Assembly (NCBI GenBank): GCA_043228905.1
Contig: JBHGNT010000011.1
Span: 14,818,001 to 14,882,000, forward strand
Direction of reading: 5' to 3'
From: Azolla caroliniana
Taxonomy: Eukaryota; Plantae; Polypodiophyta
DNA: 64,000 nucleotides
Position numbers and translations under genes: made by a program. Below are positions 4,321 through 64,000 of the stretch, piece by piece. Under the pieces are notes generated by a model. The model saw only the letters and a program-made list of their open reading frames with translations. It was not told the origin of the DNA and made no database searches. Numbering within the stretch: position 1 is the first letter of the stretch; every line of letters begins with the position of its first letter.

Positions 4321-4570
4321 TCACATGCATCATATGCATGAGAGCATCTATAAAAGAGGGAAGGGGGAGGAGAAAAAATACGGTTTTTTTTTATGAAAAT
4401 TAAGAAGAAGAATTTCGTTATCAAATCAATCGTGTAATCTCATCTTCTCTCTTTCCCAATCTATCTTAAGTACTTTCTCGCCAAAGCTTGTATCGACTCT
4501 AAATCCTTCTTGTCCAGAACCTCGGCGGTTCCGCCTCACGATCCGTGCGTAGTGACGGATCTTCACGATA
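4321..4570 (+). repeat. 3' end of a gypsy-family LTR (family C), interrupted by copia A and itself inserted in copia B
   Basis: Reverse complement of 62583-62898; ends GATCTTCACGATA; right flank GCGT. Confidence 0.88.
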
Positions 4571-32686: not shown

Positions 32687-34177
32687 AACTCCCCCATCAC
32701 TCATGTGGGGAGGATTCTGTTATTCCTATCCTCTGTCGACAGACTCTAAGTCGGTCCATCGGTAGTTTCTTTGTCAGCATGTCGGATCCATTGTCGTCAG
32801 TATGGATCTTCACGAGGGAAAACTCTCCTTCTTTGATTTTCTCTCGTAACCAGTGATACCTTCTCTGTATGTGCTTGGTTCGGGAGTGGTATGCAACATT
32901 CTTGGCTAGATTTATGGCACTCTAGTTGTCACAATGAAGCAAGAAATCCCTTTGCTTCATCCCCAATTCGCTGAGAAAGTTTCTCATCCAAATCAGCTCC
33001 TTGCCGGCCTCTACCGCTGCCATGTACTCTGCCTCTGTGGTCGACAAGGACATAGACTTCTGTAGTCGTGACTGCCACGACACTCCTCCCCCTGCATAGG
33101 TCATCACGTACCCTGATGTGGATCGGCTTGAGTCTACATCCCCTGACATGTTTGAGTCGGTAAACCCTTTGAACATGGTTTTCCGACACCATACTTAAGA
33201 CACACACCCAAGGTGCCTTTTAAGTACCCGAGTATCCATTTCACCGCTGCCCAGTGTCCTCGTCCTGGATTACTCATGTCTTATTGTTCCCACAACAAAA
33301 GCTATGTCTGGTCTCGTGTAGACCATAGCATACATTAGATTGCCGACAACTGAGGCATATGGTACTTTCCTCATCTCAACCTTTTCTTTCTCCCCTCTCG
33401 GGCATTGCTTTGCATTTAGCTTGCAGTTAGTTGGTAACACCGAGCCGACCGGCTTTGCTTCCGACATGTTGAATCTTTCTAGGAACTTAGTCACGTATTT
33501 CTCTTGTGACAACCACACCACTTTCTTAGTTCTATCTCGAACTATGTGCATCCCTAAGATCAGTTTAGCCGGTCCAAGATCTTTCATGGCAAATGATTTG
33601 CCTAGAGCTTTCTTCAAGCTTCAGATCTTCCTTGTATCTTGGCTGACTATCAACATGTCATCTACATATAACAAGAGAATCAAGAAGTCCCCTTCATCAT
33701 ACCTTTTGACGAACACACAATGATCGACCTGTGTTTTTTGGAACCTATGTTCCATCATGAAGGACTCGAACTTCTTGTACCATTGGCGTGGAGCTTGTTT
33801 CAACCCATACAAACTTTTCTTCAGTTGACAGAACAAGTTCACTTTCCCTTTCTCCTCAAAACCTTTGGGCTGCTACATGTAAATCTCTTCATCCAGCTCC
33901 CCGTGCAAGAATGTTGTCTTGACATCCAATTGTTCGATCTCTAGATCCATACTGGCAACTGTGCTCAGAACAGTTCTAATGGATGTCATCATCACGATTG
34001 GAGCGAATATTTCGTCAAAGTTGACACCCTTTTTCTATTGGAACCCCTTCACTACTATGCGGGCTTTATACCTAGGCACATTGTTGACTTCTCAAGTCTT
34101 CACCCTGTAGACCCATTTATACTTGAGTGCTCTCTTACCTTTCGACAACTCTACTAGGTCGTAGGTATAATTCTCGT

Positions 34178-34724
34178 TGTCGTGAAGATTTTCGTCCATA
34201 GGCGGAAACCGGGGTGGAATAGGCAAGTTAGTGGTGTGCTACATGTGCACATGTAAACTAGGATATGGTGTATAGAAAGAGAGGGGAAATTTTATCCCAC
34301 ATTGTAAGGTCCCTCCCTCCTTGGGCTATAAAAGGAAGGGAGGGGTCACTTATGAAGGGTTGCCTATTTTGAGGGAGAGAGGCATACCACTTAGGTCGAG
34401 GGTTTCCTATTCGGTTTTAGGGTTTTGGTTAGGGTTTTCTTCTTGGGTTTTCCTTTAGGGTTTTCTTATAGTCGTTTGGTGCGGCCATGGCGGCCACCAT
34501 TGTAAAGCGTTTATGTTTTCTTAATAGAACTTCTTGTTGAGTATCTTGACTCCATCTTCTTCATCTTCTTCTTCTTCTTCTATCATAATGTCATATTCGT
34601 TCTCTTCTCCTCTTGAGCTATGAGCTAATCTTCCATTCGTTATCTTAACCTTTCTCCTCTTCTCCCTAGTCCAAGACCCCCGTGGTCCCGCCCCTTCCAC
34701 ACGCACGCGCGAAACTTCGCGACA
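34178..34724 (+). mobile_element. gypsy-family solo LTR (547 bp) inserted in the RT start of copia I
   Basis: TGTCGTGAAG...CTTCGCGACA termini, TATAAAAG, 4-bp TSD TCGT restoring DSLYENYTY. Confidence 0.9.
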
Positions 34725-37182
34725 TCGTACAAAGAATCCATCTCATCTTGCATCGTGCTCAGCCATTTCTCTTTGTGCTTGTTGGCAAGGACTTCAGCAT
34801 AGCACTCTAGCTCACCTTCATCAGTCAAGAGGATGTATTGACTGACATATGTTGTTGGTGCTCTCCTTTCTTTGAGTGGGTATCTCCTTCCACTCATTGT
34901 GGCTTCAATTTGGATGTCTCTGCCGACTCTACTCTTGGCTCAAGTTCATGTATGTTGATCGACTTCTCAAGGTTGGAAGACTCCAACTCATATTCCTCGA
35001 TCGATCTTAATAGCTTTGCCGACTCAGACTCATAGTCGATTCTGACTTCTGTTGCTTCCAGTCCTCTATGGTCTTGTTTTCCAAGAAGACTACGTCCCGA
35101 CTCCTCACTACCTTCTTGTCGACTAGGTCCCATAGCCTATAGCCAAACTCATCTTCCGAGTATCCCATGAATATGCATGGTTTCAACTTACTGTCGAGCT
35201 TTGATCTCTGATCGTTAACTACATGCATGTACACTAGGCATCCGAACACCCTCAGGTGTCGGTAGGAGACATCCTTTCCTGTTCACACCCTTTGTGGGAC
35301 ATCACCTTTCAACAGTACTGAGGGGAACCTGTTGATAAAATAAACAACCGTGTACGTCGCCTCAACCCAATATATTTTTGGCAGTTTAGCATGCGACAAC
35401 ATGATCCTTACTCTCTCCATGATTGTTCGATGCATCCTCTCTGCAAGCCCGTTCAATTCAGGGGTCTTCGGTATTGTGTATTCGATTCGAATACCTTGGG
35501 ACTTGCAATATTCCTCGAACTACCCTTTATATTCGCCACTATTGTCGGATCGGCAACCTTCAACTTCTGACATGACTCCCATTCAGCTCTTGCCTGGAAC
35601 TCCTTGAAAAATGATTGTACTTGATCTTTTGACTTTAGTACGAAAGCCCACAACTTCCGACTGTAGTCGTCAATGAAAGTCACAAAGTACTGTTTGCCTC
35701 AATGCAATGGAGCATCTACATAACACACATCCGTGTGTACCAGTTCCAGTGTAGCTTCTCTTCTTCTTGGTGGCCGTGTGTGGAATGCTGCTCTGTTCTG
35801 CTTTCTAACTAAGCAGTCGATGCACTTCTGCAAGTGCACTCCCTTTACTTCTGGTTGGTAAATATATACAACCTTCTCACTCATGTGGCCCAACCTCTTA
35901 TGCCATATCTGTCCTGCCGAGTCGGCTGACACATTCACTTCTGACTTGCACAATCGGGCTTGCATCATATACAATGTGTCTTCCTTCTGTGCTCGGGCTA
36001 CTATAAGATTTCGTCGGCAGAACTTCCACTTGCCATTCCGAAAACTACCATTGTAGCCTTCGTCGTCAAGTCTTCCAGTCGATATCAGATTCAATCTGAT
36101 ATTGGGGACGTGTTGAACATCCTTTAGAGTCAGTTGACACCCTGTTGATGTCGTCAGGCAAACATTTTTGATTCCGGCTATCTTGCACTCCTCACTGTTA
36201 CCCATCTTTACATAACCATGATCACCAACTATGTAAGACGAGAAATACTCTCTCGACACAATTATGTGGAAGGATGCACTGAAGTCGATCACCCAAGTGC
36301 ATTCTTCGCTTGCAAGATTTGCATTTGTCTGTTCACAAATGAACAAAAGTTCTTCATTGCTCGTAGCAATGGCTGAAGTGTAGTTTTCTTTAGGAATTTT
36401 CCTGGGTTTGACATTATTACCGACACTCTTTTCCTTTTTAAGGTGTCGGCTGTCTTTCTGGAAATGTCCACACTTTCCACAATAAAAGCACACGAGCTTT
36501 CCTCTGGACTTTGACCTGGCTTGAGACTTTTTTCTCCTTGGTGGACTCCTTTGCCGATTCCTTCCTCTGCCGATGTGTTGAGTCAAATTTGACTCCGACT
36601 GGACTAGGACACCCTTGTCCTTCCTTCTCGCTTCCTCATTCAAGTTCTCTTCTTGACAAGAGGTGCTGAGAGTAACCACTAGGTTCTCCTAGCTATCCGG
36701 CAGTGTGCACATCAACACGATGGGCTGCATAGCATCATCAAGGGGAAATATGGTTGCAACAAGTTGATTTACATACCCCATGAATGTGTTGTTCGATGAT
36801 GCTCTCACCGTCTATATATTTCAGCCGTACGATCTTTCTCATTAGTGAGGTTTTATTGAGGGCGTTCTTCCCCTCATATAGACCTGATAGCTTCTGCCAC
36901 ATCTCGTGGGCATTTGTGTCGTTCGCCACATGCTGAAGGACACTTACATCAACGCACTATCGGATGGTGGCCACCGCCTTTCTGTTAAAAAGTTTCCATT
37001 CCGACTCTAATACCCCCGTAGGTATTTCTGCTCTGTCGATCGGTTCGCACAAGTCTTTGACTATGAGAAGGTCCTCCATCTTTATCTTCCAGTCTGCATA
37101 GTTCTGAGAGCTTAGAACTATCATTCCTAGGAAGCCACTCACACCTCCTTCCATGCTTGCACCTCAAGCTCTGATACCAGTT

Positions 37183-37833
37183 TGCTGAGAAATGAATCAT
37201 CAATCCACAAGAAAAGGAATATGCTGAAATACACAACTCTGAAACACAGAAAACAGTGTACACAGATTTAACGTGGAAAACCCTAAATCAGGAGAAAACC
37301 ATAGAGAACGGAGCTTCACTATACAGTGGATATACAACAACGAGATTAGAGTACAACACTCTCTACATAGAGTGTAAACAGCCTCGCAGGGATCTTGGCG
37401 TATGTTGTTTCTAAAACATAGCTATGGCGCCGTTCACTCACTCACGCTCCCACACACTCTCTTGTGTATCGCGCTACGCTACAGAGGCTCACCCATATAT
37501 ATCCATTTTTTGTTTTCCCTAGGTGTATTTATACTAATACACAGAATGGAATATTTACAATCATGGCCATTATTATTATCCAATAATAATAATAATAGTC
37601 TTACTAATTAGCCGACTCATTTGTCGACTGTCGGGTCGGTCCGACTAGTCGGCCTGGTCATCGACCATCCGGTCGGCCCGACTAGCAAGTTGTGTCTTCG
37701 ACCTAGATCAACTCTCTCTGAGTCAACTCCTCAACCGTCGGGTCTCATCCGATCAGTCGGCTGTTCCTTGTCTTCGACTGTCGGCTCTCTCTGAGTAGTT
37801 GGCTCCTCCCACTGGAGGGACATATTCCTAATA
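37183..37833 (-). repeat. 5' LTR of copia I
   Basis: Adjacent to PBS; TSD GAAGG follows. Confidence 0.92.
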
Positions 37834-39361: not shown

Positions 39362-39865
39362 TGTTGGGAATTCGGTCCCTCCGGATGGGATCCAGATGAG
39401 AACCGGATGAACCAGACTGGACGGATCCGGATGAATCCGGTGTGAACCGGATCCAGGGACATATCTATAAATATGTTTTTGATCTGTCTGTCATGGCTAT
39501 ATTTGTAAATAGTCCCAAAGTCATATAAGATAAATATGACTTAGGGCAATCACTTTATGTGTTGTTGTCATTTTTGTTGTATAGTGTGGAGAGATAGAGG
39601 GAGAGAGATACATAAAGGATTTTCTGTTGTAACCACCTGTTCGGCGAAGGCGAGGTCATTGCCTCTGAGTTTCGCGTTGAAACCTTTTCTTCTCATAGTG
39701 ATAGTTGGAGTCTGTGGGCTCCCGTGGTTTTTTTCCCTATCAGGGTTTTCCACACAAACATCATGTGTCCTCTCTGTTGTCTGTGTAAGTGTATTAATCT
39801 CCATTTCTGTTTAGATCTTCCATTGAGTGTTCTGCTCGGTTGTGGCCGAGCGTCTATTCCTCACA
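39362..39865 (+). repeat. 3' LTR of copia H
   Basis: Direct repeat of 30313-30825 after the PPT. Confidence 0.92.
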
Positions 39866-43500: not shown

Positions 43501-45090
43501 CGGAGATATCTTCTCCGGGAGAGAAGAGCCCCCCGAAGATTTCCGGATGCAGAGCATGTGTTGCTAACCGATGAGGGGGAGCCGGAAAGCTTTAAAGAAG
43601 CAAGGGGAGACACCCACAACCACAAGTGGTTGAGCGCCATGCAGGATGAGATGGATTCCATGCATGAGAACCACACATACGAATTGGTGGAGTTGCCGAA
43701 AGGAAAGAGGGCACTCCGGAACAAGTGGGTGTACAAGATGAAACCGGGAGACGCCGGAAATCCACCAAGGTATAAGGCCTGAATCGTGGTGAAGGGCTTC
43801 CAACAGAAGAAAGGAGTGGACTTCGATGAGATCTTTGCCTCGGTAGTAAAGATGACATCCATCCGGACGGTACTGGGCATAGCAGCAAGCATGGACCTCG
43901 AGGTAGAGCAACTGGACGTGAAGACGACATTCCTCCATGGTGACCTCGAAGAGGAAATCTACATGCAGCAACCGAAAGGATTTGAGAAGAAAGGGAAGGA
44001 GCACCTTGTGTGCCGGTTGAAGAAGAGCCTATACGAAGTGAAGCAAGCTCCTCGGCAATGGTACCGGAAGTTTGACTCCTTCATGACCGACCAAGGGTAC
44101 CACAAGACGCAGGCCGATCACTGCGTGTTTGTGAAGAAATTTGATGGAGGAGATTTCCTGATATTGCTCCTGTACGTGGACGACATGTTGATTGTCGGAC
44201 GAGACCAAGTCAAGATACGGATGCTGAAGAAGGCCCTTAACCGAACCTTCTCAATGAAAGACTTGGGTCCGGCAAGACAGATATTGGGGATGCACATCAT
44301 TCGGGACCGGTAGAAGAAGCTATTGTGGCTGTCACAGGAAAAGTATGTGACAAAGGTGCTTTAGTGGTTCAACATGTTGGACGCGAAACCGGTCGGATCG
44401 ACACTTCTAGCAAACTGCAAACTATCCGGAAAGCCGAGCCCGAGGACAAAGGCAAAGAAGGCGGATATGCCTCTGCGGTCGAGAGCTTGATGTACACAAT
44501 GGTGTGTACTCGACCAGATATTAGATATGCAGTTGGAGTGGTGAGTCGGTTCATGAGCAATCCCGGAAGAGAGCACTGGAACACGGTAAAGTGGATACTT
44601 CGGTACTTGAAAGGCACCTCAAGTATGTGCCTCCGATTCGGCTCCAGTAAACCCCATCTCGACGGTTTTACCAACTCAGATATGTCGGCTGATGTGGATA
44701 CCAACCAGTCAACATCCGGATATGTTATGACATATGCAGGGGGAGCTGTTTCGTGGCAGTCGAGGTTGTAGAAGACGGTTGCGTTGTCAACCACGGAGGC
44801 AGAATACATGGCAATTGTGGAAGCCGACAAGGAAATATTATGGATGAAGGACTTCATTGGAGAGCTAGGGATCCGACAAGAGGAATACCGGCTCTATTGC
44901 GATAGTCAAAGTGCCATCCACCTTGCAAAGAATGCGGCGTACCATTCCAGGATGAAGCACATCCAATGCAGGTATCACTGGATCTGGGAGCGAGTGGAAG
45001 ACCGAGAGTTCGTGCAAACGAAGATCCACAAAGAGGAGAATGGGTCGGATATGCTGACCAAGGTGTTGACACCCGACAAGATGGATGCGT
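40595..45090 (+). mobile_element. Ty1/copia element J (A-related), degenerate, interrupted at the RNase H end by gypsy F
   Basis: 5' LTR 40595-41144, mutated PBS TAGTATCAGAGC 41148-41159, gag ATG 41173, pol fragments collinear with A. Confidence 0.93.
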
Positions 45091-46804
45091 TGTCGCGGTA
45101 ATCCGTGAGTGTGTGTCGAAAGGGGCAGGATCACGGGGGTTTCGGACGAGGAAGTGATGGGTGTCGAGAAGCGGACTTCTCTCCAGTCCCGACTGCACTG
45201 GTTGTGGTGCAAACTGGAGCGATTCCGGATGTGTACCGGCGGCTACCGAACACGAGAGAGGGGAGAGAGAGCGAGAGAGAGAGGCCACGCGCGCGTCACC
45301 AACTCAACACACACCACTTATGTACTGGAAACGAAGGGAAATAAACACACCTGACACCAACAGAGACACAAATATGCACAACCTTTTGTATATATAATCA
45401 CAAGAGAAAGATACAACCCCGACTTGGAGCCGGACCAAGGTAGGGTAGGTTACAATAGCAGTTTGCTGCCAAGCCGCCGATCAGGGAGCTCTCGGGCTCG
45501 TCACACCGAGCGGGGTCTTGCATAGGAGACCGAGCAGAAGCAAACCCCAAACAGACATGAACTCTCGACCCGCACCACAAGGAAGAAGAAGAAAGAAGAA
45601 AATCCCAAAAAGAAACCCTAGAACGAAGCAAGAATAACCTACCCCTAACTCTAACGGTATACCCTCCTAATTCAAAATGGGCAACCCCTCTACAAGGGAC
45701 CATCCCTTCCTTTTATGGAACAAGGAGAGGGATGCGTTACAATGTGGGATAAATCCCGATTTACATGGGATTCTTTGTCCCGACTTGACTCCCACTTGGC
45801 GCCATAAAGGCAACCCTATTATTCACACGTTTATACAAGGGTGAGTGCACATGATGCACTCTGTCGATTCTTCTGATATTCCCCGGTTTCTCACCATGGC
45901 TCGGAATCTTTACGACATCCGCCCCCACCAAACCACACGTCCACCGGTACGTGCCAAGTTCGAAGAAGTGTGAGAGATTTCGGGCGGTGAGGAACTGGTC
46001 TTCCGTAATCCGCATTCCGGCTTTCGCGTTGCCCTCACCTGTCGGAACCGTCGGCTCCCGTTCCCTTTCTGCGTTTGCCTCTCCGTAGGCTTGTTCAACC
46101 CATCGATAGGTCATTTGCCGCGATCCCTCCTGCACGTGTGCTCCCTTGTTGGCCCTTCTCTCGACCGCCTGCACGCTCCCCGTTCCTCCGGATTATGCAG
46201 TGTCCTTTATCCAAGGAGCACCCGTGATGGCATGCTTAGCCTCCGAAGACCTTCACGTTGTCTTGGTTGCCGTCCCTTGTCGTCCGTCGCCTTCATCCCC
46301 TCGCCGCCACCTTCCTTCTCCTTGGTCTTACGTTGCCACGTTGGCTCGAACTGCCAAGGTCTCAAGACCCGGTGTGGAGGATCCCTCTCCGGCCTTTTAT
46401 GCGAGATCACCTGAACCGACAACCATCCTTCGCGCCTGTACTGCCGCTTTGGCACCTTCGTGCGCCACACATCCCCTCCTTGTTGTCTGGCACCGCTCGT
46501 GCTGAACTCCGATTACTTCCCATGCACGCGTCGTCGGCCCTTACCCGACTAGATCATCCATCGATGCCTTTTCACATGCCGGTATCCTTTGTGCCCGAGG
46601 ATCACCTCGTAGTAGCCCGCTTGGCCCCTTTTCATTGTGCGCTGTCGTAGTCGGATCGGTGCCATCCGCTCGCCCCCACTAGCTCGTTTTCTCGGCCTGG
46701 TTGCCACGCCAGTCGTTGCCACTCTGGCTGAGCCGACGATATCTCCAAAGCAGGTGTGGAGGATCCTTCTCTGACCTTTATACCATTTCCGGCTACTGAC
46801 CCGT

Positions 46805-47179
46805 TGTCGAGGTTTTCCTCGCGGATGCGTGGAATGAGGCGGGACCTCGGGGGTCCTGTACCAAAGAACAAGAGAGAAAGGAGAAGATGCCCACTACGTG
46901 CGAGAGTAGATTCACAGGGACACGACCCTTCGACACAAAGACGCGAGTGGGACAGCGACACAGGGAGACACAAACGTATGTATGTATTAACAAAGACAAA
47001 CAACACAACACGGAGTCGGTTACAACCGAACAGGCCGGCGAACAGATGCCGATACCTATTCGTAAACGCACAGAAAGGAAGGAGTAGGTTGGAGGTGCTG
47101 CCGGAAGCACTCGGGCATTCCTTAGAGCAGCGCGAGCCTCCCGAAACCTGCACAGAAGGAAGCTATGGCGTTTGCGAAC

Positions 47180-47239
<60 letters not shown>

Positions 47240-47470
47240 CCTTCGCCCACGAACCGACAACACTTCGTCCTCAACTCTCCGCGATCCCTTCGCCCCTCCT
47301 CGTCTCCCTCCTTTTATAGGCAAGGAAGGAGCCGTTTCCCCTTTACTTCCTACCTACCGAATCTGCCTGCCTAGGATCTCCTATGTACAACATAAGGCGC
47401 ACGTGCATGAAGAGCCGGTTCCTATGCTCTGGTGCACCGATTCCGCTTGTGGACGGTTTTCTTCACGACA
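46805..47470 (-). repeat. 3' LTR of gypsy E (666 bp)
   Basis: Differs from the 5' LTR by about 10 substitutions (hand count). Confidence 0.94.
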
Positions 47471-47543
47471 TCCGCCCCCACCTAACCGCGCATCCACCAG
47501 CATGCGCCAAATTGAGTTGGGACGAAGAAAATCGGTCCAGCCT

Positions 47544-50500: not shown

Positions 50501-51000
50501 GGTGAAGGTGTGTCCTATGCAGGCCGGATCTCGTAAACTGGGGTCCGACGCAACCCCTCTGATTCGGGACTCGCTGCCCTCCGGCAAGGGTGCCGCGACT
50601 GGCCTTACCTTCCGGTCCACAGTCTTGTACTTCATGCTAACTCGGGCCGTAAGATCCGACCCGAGCCCCCGACTGAAGTTCGCGATGACTTCGTACATCT
50701 CTTCGGAACATACCGGTATCGTCCGGTCCTCGCTAAGGCCTTCTCCGGCTACCTTCCTCAGCATTCCCAAGGTGTCGTCGAAGGAGACCGCCTCCAGGGC
50801 TCCACTGATTTCCTCGTCCGGGCAGAGAACTCCGCACGCACGAAGTCGCACTTCCACCCTTGTCCTTTCTCGGCCGATGATGCTGACTACCATACACCCT
50901 CCGTTGTTGGAGAAGCAAAATTTCCCACCTATCGTACAGTCGTGGGGTCTTTTCCGAGTGTCCGGGCTGTCTCGGCCCCACACCTTGGCAGCCCCCTCTA
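47544..51000 (-). pseudogene. gypsy E pol (RT FLDD, RNase H, integrase with HHCC, DDE, GPY)
   Basis: ORFs 50198..50983, 48765..50375 and 47544..48590; stops at 50198 and 48765; 13-bp duplication frameshift at 50139-50164. Confidence 0.92.
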
Positions 51001-51007
51001 AAAATCC
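50942..51007 (-). promoter_or_regulatory. putative -1 ribosomal frameshift signal (G GAT TTT TAG plus pseudoknot)
   Basis: Ends the gag-PR frame; the -1 frame opens into pol; conserved at 60521-60586. Confidence 0.75.
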
Positions 51008-53124
51008 TCCCGGTTCTCGCCACCGAGGGATTCGCGGTTTCTCTCGTGGTTCGGCCGCACCGTCAGAAATTGGACCGAATGGCGCCCGTCCTGGCTTTTG
51101 ACCCTCGCGTAGGCCGAACCGTTGTCTAGCACCTTGGTCTCCATTCGCGCCGCCGTGATGTATGGTTCACCTAATATGACCGGGTGCGAGGACGTCTCCT
51201 GTACGAAGAAGTGCTGGTCAATCTCGACGTCGCCGATCTTGACTCGCACGTTTGGGCAGGCCCCATGCAGTTCCTCGGTGGCGCGCGTCGCCGCCCGTAT
51301 CTTCCACCTGTGCTTGGTGTTCATCGGCCACTTCCCCTTCTTATAGAAGTCCATGGACATCAGGTTTATTTCCGAACCGTGGTCCACCAATGCCACCACC
51401 GGTTCCTGAACATCTCCGATCTTTACCGAGGTCTCCGTGGTCGCTCGGGCCTAGTGTGGCCTCGAATAGTGGCTCTCCGCCCACTCATCTGCCAGCGCCG
51501 AGTCGTCGATGTGCGTCGTCCGCACCTCTACCGGTCTTTCCGGTTCCGTCTCCGTCGACAGCCTCTTCCGTTTCACCAAGTCTACAATGGAGTCGTGGAA
51601 CTCCTTCTTGGCGATCCCTAGCACCTCCCGCAATGACAGCTCCACTTTGCTGTCGAGGATCCGTTCTTCTAGGACCTTTCGTAGGTCCGTAGTCCTTTCT
51701 ATTTCCGTCCCCAATCGGTATCCTCCCTTCCTGGGGTTATCTTGCGAGCTAGACCCACCGGCATCGTTCCGTCGTTGCCCGAATTGGGTCTCGTACCGTT
51801 GTGAGGTCCCGGTCGCTCCGGCTTTCCCCACCTGTTTGTCTTCAACCAGAGCCTCGTAGTTTCGGCAGGCGGCTTCTACAAAGCCCGTCTTCTCCTCGAC
51901 TGGATTGCTCCACCCGGTTATTTCCCGGACCCGTCTCTCAGCGTGGTTCGTTTCATCTTTCCTTAGCCGTGCGCTGGCAAGACCTTCCAGCATTGCCGAC
52001 CAGAATCCGTCTTTGCCCTCCTTTCGGGCCTCGCTGCCCCCGACCCGAATGCCGGCCGACGCCGAGTAGTGGATGGCCTCCACGTGTCGGGCCGCCGCCT
52101 CTTCCATCAGTCTCTTCATTCCTCCTCGCCCGTCGTTTCGGTTCAGGGCCCTCCTGGTGTCGCCGGCGTGCACCCGGCCTTCCCACAGGTACACCACCCG
52201 GTTCCTCAATGCTTCTGCGAAATCGCCGCAGTCCTTCCGGATGTGGCCGACCTCGTCGCACCACATGCACCTGTTCCCTGTTGCCGGCCGTCGGTCACGA
52301 GCCGGTTCGCCGCCTTCCCTTCGAGTCTGGGCGATCTGGAGATCCTTTATTGCCCGCGTCAACTCGTCCAGCGCTGCTCCTCCGGACGAGCCATTGACCA
52401 TGCCGGTCGAAGCCGGACCGGTTTCGAGCCATTCCCGGGTCTCTTCCCTTCGCACTTGCGGTGCCGGTTCAAGCCTCCTTGCTGTGACAGAGCCCGCACC
52501 GGCCGCCCCGTTGTCAGCCCATTCTCGCCGTTTATCGAAACGGCCACAGACTCTCTTAACCGCAGCCCAGTCGGTTGTCAGCCCGTCCTCGGTTTCCAGC
52601 AAGGAGCCGACTTGGTCCCGGTCCCGCTCGTCCACCGACTTGACGAACAGTAGGACCCGGCTCGTATCCAGAACGGTTCGGTCAAGCGCTGAAAGGCGCG
52701 CAAAGCATTCTTCGAACTCCCGGAGGAGTGCCGTCGCGTTTCTTCCCTTTCCGGGGAACTCCACCCATTCCATGAAGTCCCGTTTCGAAAGCCGGAGCAC
52801 GTCGTCCAGCTTGTATTTTTCTAGGAGTCGGCCTTCGAACTCCTCCCAGGTACGGCTCTCCGCCCGCACCTCGAGCACCTCCGCATGGATGCTCGGCATC
52901 GCCACTCGAGGAAACCCGGCAAGAAGCCCCTCTTCCGGAATGTCCCGCATCAGCATTTCTGCCCCGTAGGACGCCAAATACTTCGTGGCATCCTTTCCGC
53001 TGAACCGGCCAATCGTACCGATGACCGCCTCAATGGCTCTGTCGAGGGCGCCGGTGCCCTCGCGTGCACTCAATATCCGATCCACGGCCGAAGCCATGGC
53101 CTCTGCAAGATCCGACCCTTTCAT
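50998..53124 (-). pseudogene. gypsy E gag-protease, one TGG>TAG stop at 51451
   Basis: CMWCDEVGHIRKDC knuckle, VDHGSEIN aspartic protease; copy D has W at the stop position. Confidence 0.9.
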
Positions 53125-53146
53125 CTTCTGCTCTTCTGCCGCCTCC

Positions 53147-53164
53147 TTCACGTCGGGTTCACCA
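53147..53164 (-). other. primer binding site complementary to plant tRNA-Trp
   Basis: TGGTGAACCCGACGTGAA matches the 3' end TTCACGTCGGGTTCACCA of plant tRNA-Trp(CCA), recalled from memory. Confidence 0.85.
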
Positions 53165-53540
53165 AAGATGTCGAGGTTTTCCTCGCGGATGCGTGGAATG
53201 AGGCAGGACCTCGGGGGTCCTGTACCAAAGAGCAAGAGAGAAAGGAGAAGATGCCCACTACGTGCGAGAGTAGATTCACAGGGACACGGCCCTTCGACAC
53301 AAAGACGCGAGTGGGACAGCAACACAGGGAGACACAAACGTATGTATGTATTAACAAAGACAAACAACACAACACGGAGTCGGTTACAACCGAACAGGCC
53401 GGCGAACAGATGCCGATACCTGTTCGTAAACGCACAGAAAGGAAGGAGTAGGTTGGAGGTGCTGCCGGAAGCACTCGGGCATTCCTTAGAGCAGCACGAG
53501 CCTCCCGAAACCTGCACAGAAGGAAGCTATGGCGTTTGCG

Positions 53541-53601
<61 letters not shown>

Positions 53602-53625
53602 CCTTCGCCCACGAACCGACAACAC

Positions 53626-54601
53626 TGTTAGGAAACAGGTCCCTCCGGATGGGAAGGGAGAAGAACAGTGCCGACGAACAAACTGTATAAACCGGATGGG
53701 GAGTACCCGACTGCGGAGAGCCGGATGGTGTAGACCCGGTATGAACCGGATGAGGAGTACCCGACTGCGGAGAGCCGGATGGTGTAGACCCGGTATGAAC
53801 CGGATGAGGAGTACCCGACTGCGGAGAGCCGGATGGTGTAGACCCGGTATGAACCGGATGGGGAGTACCCGACTGCGGAGAGCCGGATGGTGTAGACCCG
53901 GTATGAACCGGATGGGGAGTACCCGACTGCGGAGAGCCGGATGGTGTAGACCCGGTATGAACCGGATGGGGAGTACCCGACTGCGGAGAGCCGGATGGTG
54001 TAGACCCGGTATGAACCGGATGAGGAGTACCCGACTGCGGAGAGCCGGATGGTGTAGACCCGGTATGAACCGGATGAGGAGTACTCGACTGCGGAGAGCC
54101 GGATGGTGTAGGCCCGGTATGAACCGGAGGAAGAGACATATTCGTAAATATGTCTCTGAGAGCCCATCGAGGCTACGTTTGTAAATAGCCGGAAAGTCAT
54201 ATTAGTATAAATATGACTTAGGGCAAACTTTTAGGTGTGTCGTTTTTGTTGTTGTCATTCTTCCTTGTTGGTGCAAGAAGAAGAGAGAGAGCGTAACTGT
54301 ACAGAGAGAGAGAGAGAGACGAGGTCGTTGCCTCTATTATAACCGCCGCCTGTGGCGAAGATCTGAGAGCACGAGGTCGTTGCCTCAGTGAACTCACTGT
54401 TGTATATTCCTACAAAGTGACAGTTTGCAGCCTGTGGGCTGCCGTGGTTTTTTCCCCTATTTTGGGGTTTTCCACGTAAACCTCCTGTGTACCATTTCTC
54501 CCCTTTGTGTCGCGTTTTTTTTTATTACCTGTTTTTCTGTGTATGAAAAGAATCTCGGTTGTGGCCGAGCATCGGACATAAGGAACGTCGAGTTCTCAAC
54601 A
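53626..54601 (+). mobile_element. solo LTR of the copia A family (976 bp)
   Basis: TGTTAG...CAACA; collinear with 3675-4320; no PBS or PPT. Confidence 0.92.
53685..54128 (+). repeat. 8 tandem copies of a 54-bp U3 repeat
   Basis: GAGTAC at 53701, 53755 ... 54079. Confidence 0.97.
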
Positions 54602-56661
54602 ATTTCGTCCTCGACTCTCCGCGATCCCTTCGCCCCTCCTCGTCTCCCTCCTTTTATAGGCAAGGAAGGAGCCGTTTCCCCTTTACTTCCTACCTACCGA
54701 ATTTGCCTGCCTAGGATCTCCTATGTACAACATAAGGCGCACGTGCATGAAGAGCCGGTTCCTACGCTCTGGTGCACCGATTCCGCTTGTGGACGGTTTT
54801 CTTCACGACACCGTGTAGTCTACTCCGCGTCCGGTTCCTTCATTCTCGGCACCACCGTGTGCCGTCCCCCGTCGTCCTTGTTCAGCACCGCCTATGCTGA
54901 ACACCGTCCTGCGATCGTGCTTTGAACCGGCCCTCGGTGGCCATATGCATGTCTCTTGTTCCGCTTTGGGTGCGCCATCCCGGCTCAACACATCGCTCCT
55001 TGCTTGTCCTTACCGGCTACTTTTGAATCCGTAACCGGGCAGTAAGGATTCGCCTCATTGTCCACTCTTCCACGTTGCCGGGTCCCATTCCCTACCGCCA
55101 CCGTCCTTCTCACTCGGTCTCACCCTGCCACGTCGGCTTGGGCTGCTGGTGTCTTCGGATCGGTGTGAGGATCCCATAGGACCGGCCTTCCTTTTCTCCT
55201 CCTTCCATCGACCTTGTCGGAAGGTCCGGTTTTGGTTTGTGGCCACCTCGTCGGCCCGTTACCTCCTTGCCGCTCTACCTTCGTCATCCGATCACGTTCA
55301 CCTGCCGCCACCGTCCTTTCCTATAGGACTCATGTTGGCACTCGGGCCGACCGCCGGATCAGTGTGAGGATCTCGTGGGAAGTCCCCCTTTTCCGTCTTC
55401 GGTTGCCCGCCTTGCCGCCGCCACCGTTCTTCTCTCTAGGTCTCACGCCAGCTCTCATTGCCGGTTGCCGGAGTGTCTAGAACTGGTGTGTGTAAGGTCG
55501 CAGCAGCACCGCTTGCCGTTTTCCCCTCGTCGTAGTTCCGACCTCTGCGTCGGCCTCTTCTATTGGTCACGTTCACCTACCGCCATCGTCCTTTCCTATA
55601 GGACTCACGCCGGCTCTCGGGCTGACCGCCGGATTGGTGTGAGGGTCTCCGTAGACCGCCTAGCCACAGTCCTTTGCCTTCGTACCCTCGCCGCTATTGT
55701 TCGTCACTCTAGGTCTCACGCCGGTTCTTGGGCTGACCGCCGGAGTCTCTAGAACCGGTGTGAAGGATCCTCCTTGGGATTGTTGTATATCGAACCCTGC
55801 CCTAGTCACACGATATACAACAAGCCCAAGGACGATCTGCGTAGGCCTGCTCCTAACTCCCTTCCGGATCGGTTATCCGGAAGTTCGCTCCGCGCGGTTC
55901 TCATCTGGGCTCGTCCATCACTCTGCATTGTCGGGTTCCGTTCTCTTGCCACCACCGTCAGTGTCTTGGTCTTACGTCGGATCCGATGCCGACCGCCGAA
56001 GTCTCTAGATCCGGTGTGAGGTGACCCATAGGACCAGTCTTAGCTCTCCGCTTCGTCCCTTGTACTTCTACCGAATTCGTTGTCGCTCTCCTTGCTGTGC
56101 TCCCGCCTCCATCTCCCTTCTGTTTTAGTATCACGTTGCCCACGTGGGTCGAACTGCCAAAGTCTCCGGTCAAGATGTGGGTCCATCGATTTCGTAACGA
56201 CTCCCAATGAATCATTCGGGGCCACCGACCCTTCTAGTGGTGTCGGTGGAAAGCATTCGTTCCATGATTGATCAAACCCCACCAGGGCTTGATTCTCCAA
56301 TGTCCGGAGTTCCTGCCGGACTTGTTCCGTACCCTCGATCATCTTCCTTTCGATTCCTGACCTTCGCCCGGTCGGTCTTTCTCCCCATGTAAAAGAGGGG
56401 GGACTGGCCCGCACCCTCTTCCGTGTTGGCACCTTCATGCCGAACCTTGCCCTAGTCACACGTTCCATGTCCGGATCGTGCTCCACCCAAATCGGGATAC
56501 TGACCACTCTGATCCCCGGTCGGTTCAACTTCTGATTTCGCTCCCCTCGGTGCCAACTCTCATTCCCTCCTTCTCTGCCGTAGCTCCATCCTCGACCTTC
56601 TCGTAGGCCGTTTCCCATCCGCCTTTGTTGGCATCGTGCCAAGACTCCTCGCTTGTGCCTT

Positions 56662-57081: not shown

Positions 57082-57514
57082 ACCTTCCATCTCTCTAGTC
57101 TTATGTCGACACACGGGCTCGATTGCCGGAGTCTCTGGAATCCGCGTGGAGGGCTCTTCTTCGCGTCAGACCTCCTCCTTGGCCGGTCTTTCTCGCAAGT
57201 CGAGAGGGTCGCTTGCTCCGCACCCCCTCCCGTGGTACCGTCATACCAATCTTCTGCCATCTCGTGGGGCTGGTCCGTCTCCTCGGCGCCGGCTTGTGGC
57301 CTTGATCTTTCCTCTTCGTCGAGAGCTGCGTATGCCTCCGCAATCCTGGCCCCAAAGCCGAGCCTTGCTAACTCTATTTGCCGTTCGACCTCTTCCCGTT
57401 GTGATGGCGCGCCGTTGCGCGCCTTCCTCCTAGCCTTCTCAGCCCGTTCGTCATCTAGCCGTTGTCATACCCTTCCGACCTTCGACCAGTCCTCCGTAAG
57501 GCCATTCGCTCCGT

Positions 57515-58408
57515 TGTCGTGGAGAAAACCGTCCCTAGGTAGAATCGGAGAATAATGTGTGCGAACCGGCCCTTATACGTAGGCACAAGTTTTGTTGTAA
57601 TATATATATTTAGGTACAAGTCGGCATATGTGAATATCCTAGGTAGCATGCATTTGTTAGGTAGAAAATCGAGGCGAATCTCTGTCTGAAAGGACAGAGA
57701 GTAAAGATAATGTAACAGGTTGTGACGGCCTCCCTCCTTGGGCTATAAAAGAGAGGGAGAGGAATCGTAATGGGGATCGCTGTTGTCGAGGACGAAGTGC
57801 TGTCGGACTGGAACCGAGCTCTTCTCCTCCGTCTTTCTCTGTGTTTGCGTTGTGTAGGTTTTCGGGATGCTGACTCTGCTCCGCGGAACGCCCGAGTGCT
57901 TCCGGCAGAGTCTCCATCTCGCGTCTGTGTGCGTGTCTGCGTGCAGGCGTCAGTGCTTGTCGCTCACCGGCCCGCTGGTTGTAACCCCTTTCATCTGATA
58001 TATATATATATATAAACATACACGCATTCATCTTGTTCCAATGGGTTGTGGTTTCTGTGTATTCGTGTGAGTGTGAAGCACGATCGTTGTTTTTCTCGCT
58101 CACCTTCTGCTCTCTTGCTCCTCGGTCCAAGACCCCCGTGGTCTTCATCTCGCGTCTGTGTGCGTGTAGGCGTCAGTGCTTGTCGCTCACCGGCCCGCCG
58201 GTTGTAACCCCTTTCATCTGATATATATATATATATATATAAACGTACACGCATTCATCTTGTTCCAATGGGTTGCGGTTTCTGTGTATTCGTGTGAGTG
58301 TGAAGCACGATCGTTGTTTTTCTCGCTCACCTTCTACTCTCTTGCTCCTCGGTCCAAGACCCTCGTGGTCCCGCCTCGTTCTACATGCACGCGCGTAAGA
58401 ACGTGACA
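57515..58408 (+). repeat. 5' LTR of gypsy D with an internal ~231-bp tandem duplication (57910-58370)
   Basis: TGTCGTGGAGAAAACCGTCC start, TATAAAAG, GTGACA end before the PBS. Confidence 0.88.
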
Positions 58409-60520
58409 TATTTGGTGAACCCGACGTGAATAGGCGACAAAGGAATAGGAAAATGAGGTGATCGGAGCTTGTAGAAGCCATGGCTTTAGCTGTGGATCGG
58501 ATAGTGAGTGCGTGCAAAGGCGAAGGCGCCCTCGATAGAGCCATTGAAGCGATCGTCGGCATGATAGGCCGGTTTGGTGGAAAGGATGCCACGAGCTATT
58601 TGGAGGCCTACTGAGCCGAAATGGTGACGAGGGACATTCCGGAGGACAGGCGACTGACTGGATTCCCTCGGGTGGCAATGTCGAGCAACCATACGGAGGT
58701 GCTCGAGGTACGGGCTGAGGGCCGGACCTGGGAAGAATTTGAAGGGCGGCTCCGTGAGAAATACGGGCTTGATGACGCGCTTCGGCTATCGAAGCGGGAC
58801 TTCATGGAATGGGTGGAGACCCCAAAAAAGGGAGAAACGCGTCGGTGCTCCTCCGGGAATTTGAAGAACGCTTCCCGCGTCTTTCGGTGCTGGACCGGAC
58901 CATACTGGACACAAGTCGTGTCCTATTGTTTGTTAAATCGGTGGACGTGAGGGAGTGGGAGCAAGTGGGCCTCCTGCTGGAGATCGACGACGGGCTGACG
59001 ACCGACTGGCCCGTGGTGAAGAGAGTCTTCGGCCGTTTTGACAAACGACGAGATTGGGCCGATAAAGGCTCAGCGGGAGGAGGCTTTGTTGCAGCAAGGA
59101 AACTCGAGGTACCCCCACCGGCGCGAAGGGAGGAGACCCGAGACTGGCTCGAGGCCGGCTCGACTTCGACCGGCGTTGTCAAAGGCCCGTCCGGAGGAGC
59201 GGCTCTAGAGGAGCTGACTCAGATGGTGAGGGACCTCTAGATTGCACAAGCACGGAGGGACGACGGCGAACTAGCCCATGACCAAAGAAATCCAGCTGGG
59301 CATCGGTGCTTGTGGTGCGACGCGGTCGCCCACAACCGAAAGGACTGCAGGAACTTTGCCGAAGCGATAAGGGCCAACGTGGTGTACCTATGGAACGGGT
59401 GGGTACACGCTAGCGAAACCTGGAGGGCCCTAGATCTGAACATCGGACGAGGGAGAATGAAACGGTTGATGGAGGAAGCGGCGGCTCGCCATGCGGAGAC
59501 CATCCACTACTCGGCGTCGGCGAGAATCTAGGACTCCGGGTTCTAGCCGTTGGTGCTGGAAGGCCTAGCCGGAATACGGCTGAGGAAAGAGGAAGCGGAC
59601 CGCGCGGAAAGACGGGTCCGGGAGGTAACCGGGTGGAGTGACCCGGTCGAAGAGAAGACGGGATTCGAGGAAGCCGCATACCAGAACTACGAGGTTCTGG
59701 TGGAAGACAAGCGCACGGGAAAGATCGGGGGGGCTGGGCCCTCACAATGGTATGAGACCCGGTTCAGGCTGAAGCCGAATGATGTCGGTGCATCCGGCGC
59801 ACCGAACAAGGCTAAGAAGGTCGGTTACCGGTTGAGCACAGAGATTGAAAGGACCATGGACCTACGAAAGGTCTTGGAGGAACGGATCCTCAACAACAAA
59901 GTGGAGCTGTCACTGAGGGAGGTGCTCGGAATCACCAAGAAGGAGTTCCATGACTCCATCGTAGACTTGGTGAAGTGGAAAAGGTTTTCGACAGAGCCGG
60001 AGCCGGAGAAGCCGGTGGAGGTGCAAACGACGCACCTAGAAGACATGGCCCTGGAAGACAAGCTGGCGGAAAGCCACTACTCGAGGCTACATTGGGCTAG
60101 GGCCACTATGGAGACCTCTGTTAAGATTGGAGATGTCCAGGAGCCGGTGGTTGCGTTGGTAGACAACGGTTCGGAAATCAACCTAATGTCCATGGACTTT
60201 TACAAGAAGGGCAAGTGGCCGATCAATGCCAAGCACAGGTGGAAAATACGAGCAACGACGTGTGCCACAGAGGAGATACACGGAGCCTGCCCGGATGTAC
60301 GAGTGAAAATCGGTGATGTCGAGATTGATCAACACTTCTTTATGCAGGAGACATCCTCGCATCCGGTGATACTCGGGGAACCGTACATCACAGCGGCACG
60401 AATGAACAGTTCAACATACGTGTGAGTCAAGAGCTGGGATGAGCGTCACTCCGTCCAGTTTCTGACGGTACGACCGAACCATGAGCGGAACCGAGAGACC
60501 CTCGACGGCGAAAGCCGAGG

Positions 60521-60586
60521 GGATTTTTAGAGAGGGCTATCAAGGTGTGGGGCCGCGATAGTCTGGACACCCCGAGAAACCCCCAC
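60521..60586 (+). promoter_or_regulatory. putative -1 frameshift signal in D
   Basis: GGATTTTTAG, stem GGGCTATC/GATAGTCT, GTGGGG/CCCCAC. Confidence 0.7.
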
Positions 60587-63043
60587 GGATGTACTGTAGG
60601 GAAGAAACCTTGTACCATAGGTAGGAAGTTTTGGTTCTCCGATAGCGGAGGTTGTACAATAACCGACGTCGTTGGCCGGGAGAAGAAGCAGGTAGAAGAG
60701 TGACTCAGGGCATGTAGAGTCCTCGCCCTTGAAGAGGAAATCAACGGAGACGTGGAGGCGATCTCTCTTGATGACAACTTGGGGAAGTTATGGAAGGTGT
60801 TCGAAGAGGGCCTTAGTGAAGACCGGACGATTTCTGTATGTTCGGAAAAGTTGTACGAAGTCATCGCCGACTTCGGTAGAGGACTCGAGTCGGATCGGAT
60901 GGCCCGAGTGGACACGAAGTACAAGACTGTGGACCGGAAGGTGAGGCCAAGCGCGGCACCCTTGCCGGAGGGCAGCGAGTTACGGATGAAAGGGGTCGCG
61001 TCGGACCCAAGTTTACGAGATCCGGCCGGCATAGGACACCGATTCACCGACATAACGCTATGAGAGCTCAAGGTAGGTGGGGGTGGCTTTCTACTGCCGG
61101 CGGAGGAGGACCGGTTTCGGGGAATGCTCGGGAGGCACAAAAAGGCCTTCACATTCTAGCCGGAGGAAATCGGGTGCGTAGACCCGACGATTGTGGAACC
61201 GATGGTGATCTTCACGGTACCGCATGTACCGTGGAATCTCAAACCGATTCCAGTACCTAGAGCTCACATCCCGAAGCTAATGGAGCTGCTGAAACAGAAG
61301 GTGGATATGGGCATCCTCGAACCGTTGAGTGCCGCATATTCTAATCGGTGGTTTACCGTGCCCAAGAAGAACGGCACGCTGCGCTTCATTCAGGACCTGC
61401 AACCGGTCAACAAGGTGACCATTCGGAATGCAGGAATCGGACCGACCATAGATGAGTTCGCGTAGGCCTTCTTTGGAAGGTCAATTTAGTCGGTCGGTGA
61501 TCTGTACTCGGGATACGATCAGTTTCAGCTAGCCGTGGAGATCAGGGACATTACGACGATGCGGACTCCTCTCGGCCTAGTACAGATGTGTACCCTTCCG
61601 CAAGGGGGGACGAACTCGGTAGCCCACATGGTGAACGCAATGAACAAAGTGCTAAGGGATTGTATCCCGGATATCACCATGCCATTCTTAGACGACATCC
61701 CGATCAAAGGATGCTAGTGGAGGATAAGGACAAGACAATCGGACCGGATGGATGCCGGAAATTCGTGGCGGACCACGTCGATGACTGCGAGAAGGTGCTG
61801 CAAAGACTAGAAGGATCGAGGCTCACCTTCTCCGGGGAAAAATCGGCCTTCGGCCAATCGGAGATCATGGTCGTCGGACACCTATGCGGGCCATTCGGTC
61901 GGAACCCGTCGTCGGCCGAGGTAGAGGCCATCTCCGCGATGAAGCGTGACTGCAATTTGGTCATGGAAGTCCAGAGATTCTTGGGAGCATGTGCGTTCTA
62001 CCATATTTGGATCCCGCATTACGCCCACGTCGCGGAGCTGCTCTATGGATTGCTAAAGAAAGGGCATAATTTCGAGTGGAGAGAGGAGCATACGGAGTCG
62101 GTCTGGAAGATGAAAGAAGCACTTGTTGCGGCGCCGACACTCCGGAAAGTGGTCTACGGTAAAGACATTCCGATTTACGTGACCGTAGACATGAGTCCGA
62201 CCAGAATCGGATGGGTGATCAACTAGGAGGATGAGAATGGCACGAGGTTCCCCATCCGGTTCGGTGCGAAAGTCCTCAGTGAACGACAACGAGCTTTGGG
62301 GTATCGTTTCGGCGGTCAAGGTCGACAAAGACTATCTGATCGGGATAGAGGTGATAATTGAGACAGACTCCCTGCCGATTCTCGGTATGGTTTCCGGATG
62401 CGCGACGCCGGACCTGGCAATGCTCAGGTGGATAGCGTACATCAAGTCCCTGAATCCGGAAATACGACACATTTCCGGAAAAGACAACACCATGGCCGAC
62501 ATGCTTTCAAGGGCGAGATTCGATGATGAGGACGGCATGGTTTCGGAGGACGAAGAAGTCGGTGTGGACTTCTTTGAGACGGTGTCGTGAAGATCCGTCA
62601 CTACGCGCGGATCGTGAGGCGGAACCGCCGGGGTTCTGGACCGGAAGGATTCAAAGTCGGTACAAGCTTTGGCGCAAGCTTTGGCGAGAAAGTACTTAAG
62701 ATAGATTGGGAAAGGGAGAAGTTGAGATTAAACGATTGAGAGAGATTGATTGAACTTTTATCTTTGGATTTAAGAAACAAGTTACACGATCAATTTGATA
62801 ACGAATTTCTTCTTCTTAATTTCATAACAAAAAAAACGCGTTTTTTCTCCTCCCCCTTCCTTCTTTTATAGATGCTCTCATGCATATGATGCATGTGAGG
62901 GTACAAGACATGCATAAAATTCATGCTTGCCATTTGGCGCTTATGTATTACATGTGGTGCATGATAACCATGTCACTCATTTTAGCTCTCATGTATGAGA
63001 ATTTACATGTAAAAGTACAATGATAGAAATATAAATTCAACTA

Positions 63044-63115
63044 AATGGCATGGCTTAATGGTAAGCCAATTGACTCCTAACTCGAAGGTGCAAGGTTCAA
63101 ATCCTTACTTGCTCT
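63044..63115 (+). other. tRNA-like sequence with Pol III A and B boxes inside LTR C
   Basis: TGGCTTAATGG 63051-63061, GGTTCAAATCC 63094-63104; D- and T-arm hairpins present, acceptor stem absent. Confidence 0.55.
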
Positions 63116-63164
63116 CCTTGTATATGTATATATATATATATATTTATATATTTATTTATCTAGT

Positions 63165-63420
63165 CACCGGACGCCGGTTCGCCGGATGCCGTCGGTTACC
63201 GGTGCCTCGCCGTCGCCGGATTGCCGTCGGATGCCGGTGTCTCACTAGTGCCGAATGCCGCCGGAACACCGGCTCCATCACCGGTCCGGTTTTGGTTGGC
63301 CGATGCTGCCGCCGGATGCCGTCGGTTACCGATGCCTCGCCGGATGCCGCCGCCTCGCTGTCGCCGTCGGATGCCGTCGGAACACCGGCTCCATCGCCGG
63401 TCCGGTTTTGGTTGGCCAAA
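63165..63420. repeat. GC-rich degenerate repeats (GCCGGATGCCGTCG) in U3 of LTR C
   Basis: Two ~115-bp related blocks ending CCGGTCCGGTTTTGGTTGGCC. Confidence 0.8.
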
Positions 63421-64000
63421 ACCCTTTACGAGTAGCTAGCCCACCTCCACTCTTAGTTCAAGTTACCTTGAACTCTCTATGCTCCACACATAGACACAAA
63501 GATAATATCTTTTGCTCTACCTTATATATGATGAGAGCCGTATTTGTCGTGCCTATGTGGGATATCTCACAAATTTCTCTTTTCCTTTCACAAACTTTAT
63601 ACCCTCATATCTTGACATTTAGTTCTCTGTTTCTCGTGTAATAAAGTGCATTCGAAACTTCCATCATTTTGTACTTAGATATTAAATTTATTTAAAATGT
63701 TATCTTCACAATTATTGTATTATGTGATTCATACTCGATTTTGTACGTTTTATGGGATTTTCACACTATTGTCAAAAATCTTCATGATAACGGCTTACAT
63801 AAAAACAAGGGAGGGGAGCACTCCAGCGCTTAACGAGTTCGACGAGAGCAAGTACGATGGGGAGTGGCTCTAGATCGGCGGGTTCCTGAAGACAATGACA
63901 CCGGACATGGCGTGGACGGAGGAAGAGACCAACCGGATTCGGAAGAAAGTGTACCGGTTCTTCCTACGGGATAAGTGCATGTGGAAGCACCCGAAGAAGA

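What the first reader, a model, noticed from the sequence alone, without database searches (positions are those of the whole stretch)
34174..63793. Gypsy family with 4-bp TSDs and an apparent CGT target preference
Seen: three complete insertions have 4-bp TSDs: TCGT (34174/34725), CCGT (46801/54811) and ACGG (62579/63790, reverse complement CCGT). Three one-sided junctions read GCGT (4571), GCGT (45087) and CCGT (57511). All six are NCGT/ACGN with a central CpG, whereas the copia elements here have 5-bp TSDs without CG. Known: most plant LTR elements make 5-bp TSDs with weak sequence preference. Inference: a sequence-selective, possibly mCpG-selective, integrase without a chromodomain, steering insertions into other methylated TEs (all six are inside TEs).
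Basis: partly seen in the sequence, partly recalled or inferred. Interest (0 to 1): 0.75.

Follow-up and report, generated by a model that had tools for sequence, protein, structure and literature searches.

The report
Fern retrotransposons that insert at CpG
A large family of jumping genes in a probable fern genome inserts almost only into CG dinucleotides and duplicates 4 bases, a habit already described for the moss Phygy lineage it likely belongs to; nothing found here shows that the CG must be methylated.

Summary
All three 4-bp TSDs are in the window; two one-sided junctions gain matching far ends beyond it (GCGT/GCGT; CCGT/CCAT). Genome-wide, 1357 of 1535 outer LTR starts of one subgroup have CG at TSD positions 2-3 (background 2.8%), 97 have TG/CA and 2 TA. 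In 27 of 27 complete elements at least one TSD copy keeps the CG, so TG/CA is mostly later deamination. The motif is symmetric VCGB, not CGT. The elements have a tRNA-Trp primer site and no chromodomain or extra RNase H. This matches Phygy (Neumann 2019: 4-bp NCGN, Trp primer), described there as specific to Physcomitrella; placement in that clade could not be tested without reference sequences. New here: a probable fern host, close relatives in liverworts and ferns, and the sharper motif. The methyl-CpG steering idea is unsupported but not excluded: targets lie in repeats more often than random CGs (81-89% against 53%), but CG-blind copia elements nest as often (93%). A word search of the scan's earlier findings returned nothing on this trait.

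The parts
34174..34177 (.). TSD TCGT, left copy (right copy 34725-34728)
34178..34724 (+). Solo LTR (E1) of a related family, about 4.2 kb per element and likely non-autonomous, inserted in a copia coding region
   Evidence: family members have the Trp PBS and the PPT, and gag similarity but no close pol match in the 8 loci tested
46801..46804 (.). TSD CCGT, left copy (right copy 54811-54814)
46805..47470 (-). 3' LTR of the complete element E2 (666 bp; 10 mismatches in 664 aligned bases against the 5' LTR)
47471..47487 (-). Polypurine tract abutting the 3' LTR
47544..48602 (-). Integrase reading frame: DDE core, long helix, SH3-like C-terminal domain, acidic tail; no chromodomain
48765..50636 (-). 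Reverse transcriptase and RNase H reading frame (pol is broken into several frames in this copy)
50998..51450 (-). Aspartic protease piece
   Evidence: E 0.001, below the curated cut-off
51451..53526 (-). Open frame holding gag (DUF4100-like); its first ~120 codons lie in the LTR
   Evidence: (E 6e-5, below cut-off)
53147..53164 (-). Primer-binding site, 18 nt complementary to the 3' end of host tRNA-Trp(CCA) with its CCA tail
53169..54810 (-). 5' LTR of E2, interrupted by a copia solo LTR at 53626-54601
62579..62582 (.). TSD ACGG, left copy (right copy 63790-63793)
62583..63789 (-). Solo LTR (E3) of a sister family, inserted in the RNase H region of the element starting at 57515
   Evidence: family integrase about 70% identical to that of E2
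4321..4574 (+). Truncated E3-family LTR end (4321-4570) followed by GCGT (4571-4574); no far end found in the window
45087..45917 (-). GCGT (45087-45090) plus the 3' LTR of element E4; its far end lies at window-equivalent 77757 with GCGT; E2, E5 and E3 lie inside it
57511..64000 (+). CCGT (57511-57514), 5' LTR 57515-58408, Trp PBS from 58413 and gag-pol of element E5; far end at window-equivalent 67018 with CCAT

Best explanation
These are Trp-primed, chromodomain-less Ty3/gypsy retrotransposons, likely of the Phygy lineage, that insert at VCGB sites with a 4-base stagger, and their integrase likely reads the CG base pairs as sequence without needing methylation. Shown: 4-bp TSD, near-obligate central CG, avoidance of T at position 1 and A at position 4, Trp PBS, PPT, and gag-PR-RT-RH-INT with no added targeting domain. 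Inferred: a foamy-virus-like intasome kinks the target at the central pyrimidine-purine step (PFV consensus VYRB, 4-bp TSD) and direct base contacts narrow YR to CG, since TA is practically never used. Candidate contacts, untested, are the conserved loop between the first two strands of the C-terminal domain (Q274, H275, K280, R284) and E104, which aligns with PFV Ala188. Inferred: after insertion the host methylates the junction and the duplicated CG decays to TG/CA. Nesting in other TEs likely reflects the CG-richness of young TEs plus heterochromatin bias or selection shared with copia.
For: Counts for one LTR start: 2701 in all, 1166 internal behind the PPT (33), 1357 CGN (32), 1456 YRN (34), 2 TAN (73), 20 TCGN (74), 40 NCGA (95). 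Background: CG 2.8% per base, T before CG 34%, A after CG 34%. Of 27 complete elements whose ends were called without using the TSD: 17 identical TSDs, 7 differing only by C>T or G>A in the CG, 3 other; all 27 have CG on at least one side (43, 81; one of the 7 was picked as an exception). Phygy: 4 bp NCGN, tRNA-Trp 81%, no extra domain. PBS matches genomic tRNA-Trp (94, 96, 97). Model pLDDT 76; best fold matches PFV and Ty3 intasomes. PFV consensus KWK\VYRBMWM (79). Copia nests as often.
Against: No Phygy reference sequence was available, so clade membership rests on diagnostic traits. Complete copies are mostly 6.6-7.7 kb, below the Phygy range of 7656-9968 bp. 79 of 1535 starts are neither PPT-preceded nor YR and were not inspected genome-wide (2 such in the C1 sample: one mutated PPT, one shifted CG). 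L034 has CCAT on both sides; L106 and L109 have unmatched ends. Targets lie in repeats more often than random CGs (44 of 54 and 50 of 56 against 160 of 300), which a methyl-reading integrase would also give. The random CGs come from only 20 stretches of one contig. The contact residues are a guess from alignment.
Confidence: 0.75

Rival explanations
1. The integrase reads methylated CG (for example by an arginine-guanine-methyl contact in the widened major groove) and so steers insertions into already silenced DNA without a chromodomain.
For: Targets are enriched in repeats over random CG sites, also among the youngest copies (9 of 12 under 1% LTR divergence by DNA repeats; 11 of 12). No host-gene domain in 48 of the 66 frames beside the 19 non-repeat targets. 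The junction CGs decay like methylcytosine. No chromodomain is there to explain the bias.
Against: Copia nests equally with no CG preference. Decay shows methylation after insertion only. CpG o/e around targets equals that of random CGs in both non-repeat (0.59 against 0.60, n=19) and repeat DNA (0.98 against 0.93) (low power). No methyl-binding domain is seen. In a tree fern 88.87% of CGs are methylated, gene bodies included, so in such a genome mCG would discriminate little.
Confidence: 0.17
2. The preference is only shape readout: a flexible pyrimidine-purine step, as for PFV and MLV, with CG being the commonest flexible step in TE-rich DNA.
For: The V..B edges and 4-bp spacing match PFV.
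Against: TA is used in 2 of 1535 junctions, and TG/CA junctions are paired with an intact CG on the other side, so other YR steps are practically unused.
Confidence: 0.05
3. The family is TatI (also 4-bp TSD and Trp primer) or a separate lineage that reached the same traits by convergence.
For: TatI: 4 bp, tRNA-Trp 75%. No direct phylogenetic test against Phygy was possible.
Against: TatI carries an added archaeal-type RNase H in all cases; none is detected in this pol or in full-length relatives. NCGN is reported only for Phygy.
Confidence: 0.08

Closest known systems
Phygy (Ty3/gypsy, non-chromovirus; Neumann et al. 2019, PMC6317226; passages and supplementary table MOESM5 read)
   Same: 4-bp NCGN TSD, tRNA-Trp PBS, no chromodomain or added RNase H, coding region filling most of the interior.
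   Different: Described there as specific to Physcomitrella; here the host is probably a fern, with 50-67% identical relatives in Riccia, Adiantum and Ceratopteris. Elements are about 7 kb against 7.7-10 kb. The motif is resolved to VCGB. Several sister families occur, one likely non-autonomous.
Prototype foamy virus intasome (Serrao et al. 2015, PMC4422553; passages read)
   Same: 4-bp TSD, symmetric V..B edges, central pyrimidine-purine step; best sequence and fold matches of the integrase along with Ty3.
   Different: The PFV preference is weak and accepts any YR; here CG is nearly obligate. PFV is a retrovirus; identity is only about 19-24%.
TatI and Selgy (same survey)
   Same: 4-bp TSD; TatI also uses tRNA-Trp.
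   Different: TatI has an added RNase H, Selgy uses tRNA-Ala, and no NCGN preference is reported for either.
Fungal Ylt1/SN_1006 non-chromodomain gypsy lineages (Novikova 2010, PMC2864245; passages read)
   Same: Gypsy elements without a chromodomain. A link through the DUF4100-type gag is recalled, not shown by a call.
   Different: No named sequence of these lineages was compared, and their target motif was not found in the passages read.

Membership tests
Phygy | RT/RH/INT domains group with Physcomitrella Phygy in a tree | not testable with these tools
   The reference FASTA of Neumann 2019 is too large to read; no hit named Physcomitrium among those listed. A quick tree only shows a clade with Riccia and Adiantum proteins.
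Phygy | 4-bp TSD | tested here: met
   19 of 31 paired ends are identical over 4 bp, none over 5
Phygy | NCGN target | tested here: met
   1357 of 1535 genome-wide; 119 of 135 sampled junctions
Phygy | tRNA-Trp primer-binding site | tested here: met
   18-nt match to the tRNA-Trp(CCA) 3' end with its CCA tail
Phygy | No chromodomain, no added RNase H | tested here: met
   Pfam scans of the window frames and full-length relatives; the model ends in an SH3-like domain and a disordered acidic tail
Phygy | Length 7656-9968 bp (descriptive; the paper calls size of little value for classification) | tested here: inconclusive
   7030 bp without the nested copia LTR; most complete copies 6.6-7.7 kb
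TatI | Added archaeal-type RNase H in pol | tested here: not met
   No such Pfam hit
Chromoviruses (Tcn1, Galadriel, Reina, Tekay, CRM) | C-terminal chromodomain or CR motif; Met or self priming; mostly 5-bp TSD | tested here: not met
   No Pfam chromodomain, Trp PBS, 4-bp TSD; the CR motif was not searched separately
Methyl-CpG-selective integrase (hypothetical) | Prefers methylated over unmethylated CG | not testable with these tools
   Indirect tests neutral; no methylome or assay at hand

The most novel reading that the evidence does not exclude
A land-plant-wide (moss, liverwort, fern) retrotransposon lineage whose integrase itself recognises methylated CpG at the centre of its 4-bp target, an epigenetic-mark-reading integrase that places new copies in silenced DNA with no chromodomain or host tether.
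Probability: 0.15. Interest if true: 0.75.

Novelty: new member of a known kind. Interest (0 to 1): 0.3.

Why it matters
Almost all plant LTR elements have weak target preference; this lineage is the known exception. The data extend it from one moss to a probable fern, with close relatives in liverworts and other ferns, and sharpen the rule to a near-obligate VCGB. With at least 1500 insertions of one subgroup, some with identical LTRs, the genome offers a ready data set for asking how a foamy-virus-like integrase narrows a loose YR preference to CG, and whether methylation matters. Practical points: LTR annotation that demands perfect or 5-bp TSDs will miss these elements because the TSD decays quickly, and each insertion duplicates a CpG. 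If methyl-selectivity were shown it would be a targeting mechanism I did not find described, and of tool value.

Tried and rejected
Single-sequence structure prediction failed (pLDDT 36); the alignment-based one worked. Searches for distant relatives with flanks found none in viral contigs or prokaryote genomes. Cluster look-ups gave no moss names. The Atlas search gave only generic integrase clusters. My first end-calling script missed subfamilies with different LTR ends and was replaced; 26 of 58 loci still have no far end called, mostly because nested inserts likely push it beyond 8.5 kb. L107 was dropped as a doubtful end call; the 4 solo-LTR ends were called allowing one mismatch to the left TSD and are kept out of the 27-element count. 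L110 was dropped from the junction set as a mutated PPT. GingerRoot (6-bp TSD, DNA transposon) and the Yarrowia papers gave no bearing. Literature searches: NCGN with retrotransposon returns only Neumann 2019 as relevant (44); Phygy + non-chromovirus + fern returns none (89); no paper on a methyl-CpG-selective integrase appeared (55). Subscription papers, REXdb updates and Repbase are outside the library, so a fern record of Phygy may exist; two large supplements of Neumann 2019 could not be read.
Full report
1. Observation. All coordinates check out. Three insertions have identical 4-bp flanks: a 547-bp solo LTR (TCGT), an 8006-bp element on the minus strand (CCGT) and a 1207-bp solo LTR (ACGG). 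Two of the three one-sided junctions were closed with DNA beyond the window: the LTR at 45091 belongs to an element ending at window-equivalent 77757 with the same GCGT, and the element starting at 57515 ends at 67018 with CCAT against CCGT. The junction at 4571 is a truncated LTR end. All eight flanks tested have matches in other loci, so 'inside TEs' is a fair description.

2. Anatomy. The complete element E2 has LTRs with 10 mismatches in 664 aligned bases, a primer site with 18 nt complementary to tRNA-Trp (tRNA-Trp genes confirmed in the genome), a polypurine tract, and gag (DUF4100-like), protease, RT, RNase H and integrase in gypsy order, broken into several frames. No chromodomain or second RNase H is detected here or in full-length relatives. 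The three LTR types searched in the genome are distinct families of one lineage: E3-family integrase is about 70% identical to that of E2, and E1-family elements are about 4.2 kb, with gag similarity but no close pol match. Named relatives are from Riccia, Adiantum and Ceratopteris at 50-67% identity. A host acyltransferase gene in the window is most identical to fern proteins (the top row by E-value is an angiosperm protein at lower identity), so the host is probably a fern; the genome has 523 Mb.

3. Genome-wide test. An exact 20-nt LTR start occurs 2701 times; 1166 follow the polypurine tract and are internal. Of the other 1535, 1357 (88%) have CG at TSD positions 2-3, 99 more have another YR step, of which 2 are TA and so 97 TG or CA; 79 are unexplained and include mutated tracts. 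Background CG frequency in 200 kb of evenly spaced stretches of contig C1 is 2.8%. Among the 1357, T stands first in 20 and A last in 40, against 34% each in background CGs. The motif is therefore symmetric VCGB. In 135 distinct sampled junctions, position 1 is A70 C40 G20 T5 and position 4 is T64 G46 C21 A4. These counts cover exact matches only and so favour younger copies.

4. The exceptions are mostly decay. I fetched the first 55 non-internal starts on contig C1 plus 3 picked exceptions. For 27 complete elements the far end was called without reference to the TSD: 17 have identical TSDs, 7 differ only by C>T or G>A within the CG, 3 differ otherwise, and all 27 have CG on at least one side. 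By eye, five further pairs differ at position 1 or 4 in the direction expected for deamination in the CHG context formed with the LTR end (C|TG, CA|G). This decay indicates methylation after insertion, not before. Against: L034 has CCAT on both sides, and L106 and L109 have unmatched ends.

5. Controls. Copia solo LTRs have 5-bp TSDs (13 of 17 exact) with CG in 5 of 28 junctions, 5.7 expected. Flanks matching another locus or an LTR-element protein: this lineage 44 of 54 (positional sample) and 50 of 56 (similarity sample), copia 26 of 28, random CG sites 160 of 300, random positions 60 of 200. So nesting exceeds what CG density predicts, but the CG-blind copia family does the same (p=0.57 on DNA repeats). 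The repeat library is made of my own loci and is incomplete: 5 of the 19 non-repeat flanks proved to carry retroelement-type domains and none a host-gene domain (48 of 66 frames scanned). The random CGs come from 20 stretches only. CpG o/e around targets equals that around random CGs within each class.

6. Mechanism. The integrase model (pLDDT 76) matches PFV and Ty3 intasome structures best. PFV makes 4-bp TSDs with consensus VYRB, kinking the target at the central step, with base contacts from Ala188 and the C-terminal Arg329 (Serrao 2015, passages). The V and B edges here are the same; the centre is narrowed from YR to CG, and the absence of TA argues for direct base readout beyond flexibility. 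E104 aligns with PFV Ala188 and, with Q274, H275, K280 and R284 in the C-terminal loop, is conserved in 88-98% of the 50 aligned homologs that cover it. These are untested candidates. Methyl-CpG readout is structurally conceivable, but nothing here requires it. In a tree fern nearly 89% of CGs, gene bodies included, are methylated (PMC9122828, passages), which would make mCG a poor guide to TEs if this host is similar.

7. What is known. Neumann et al. 2019 (passages; supplementary table) state that Phygy elements prefer NCGN, with 4-bp TSDs in 100% of 186 elements, tRNA-Trp priming in 81% and no extra domain, and call the clade specific to Physcomitrella. PMC6911290 (passages) also reports 4-bp TSDs for Phygy and Phygy nested in Tcn1. 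Four diagnostic traits are met here, size is slightly below range, and the phylogenetic test could not be run. TatI is excluded by the missing added RNase H. My searches found no paper on Phygy in ferns or on methyl-selective integration, within the limits of the library. The scan's earlier notes hold nothing on this trait by words; the 8 of 45 same-genome notes shown concern other gypsy families.

8. Verdict. A real and strong feature, and an already described one: a likely new fern member of the Phygy kind, with a refined VCGB motif. Interest 0.3. The methyl-CpG reading remains open at about 15%.

Noticed in passing
window 7863-16800: Tandem array of about 24 units of ~354 bp, most carrying a tRNA-Asp(GTC) gene on the minus strand; 23 genes called, two with anticodon ATC and one read as Gly.
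   Followed up: no
G000:C8:17801960-17818955, C5:10105608-10112205, C16:4993948-5087205: tRNA-Trp 3'-end matches also lie in tandem or clustered arrays (about 1.2 kb and 0.87 kb spacing), so tRNA gene arrays seem a general trait of this genome.
   Followed up: no
L106, L139, L109: L106 and L139 share the same 24-bp target flank in a repeat. L106 (ACGT/GCGG) and L109 (CGGC/ACGA) have near-identical LTRs but unmatched ends, suggesting recombination between copies or integration of the two ends at separate CGs.
   Followed up: partly
P0340: A ~41%-identity relative with a DUF4100-type gag carries a C-terminal PHD finger after the integrase, a possible histone-reading targeting domain in a sister lineage.
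   Followed up: no
L253:~2000-2240 (minus strand) and L307: A different Trp-primed element in metagenome contigs with a candidate ~200-bp LTR has ACGT and ATGT junctions, hinting that the CG rule extends to more distant families.
   Followed up: no
window 53626-54601: Copia solo LTR nested in the 5' LTR of E2, with 8.4 copies of a 54-bp unit; its 5-bp flanks do not match.
   Followed up: partly
window 45091 to window-equivalent 77757: A 32-kb nest: element E4 contains E2, a copia LTR, E5 (with E3 inside) and a further sister insertion in its own 5' LTR.
   Followed up: partly
window 18986-20155 (+) and 21145-22263 (-): Host genes between the TE blocks: an F-box/kelch frame and a BAHD (HCT-like) acyltransferase frame.
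   Followed up: partly
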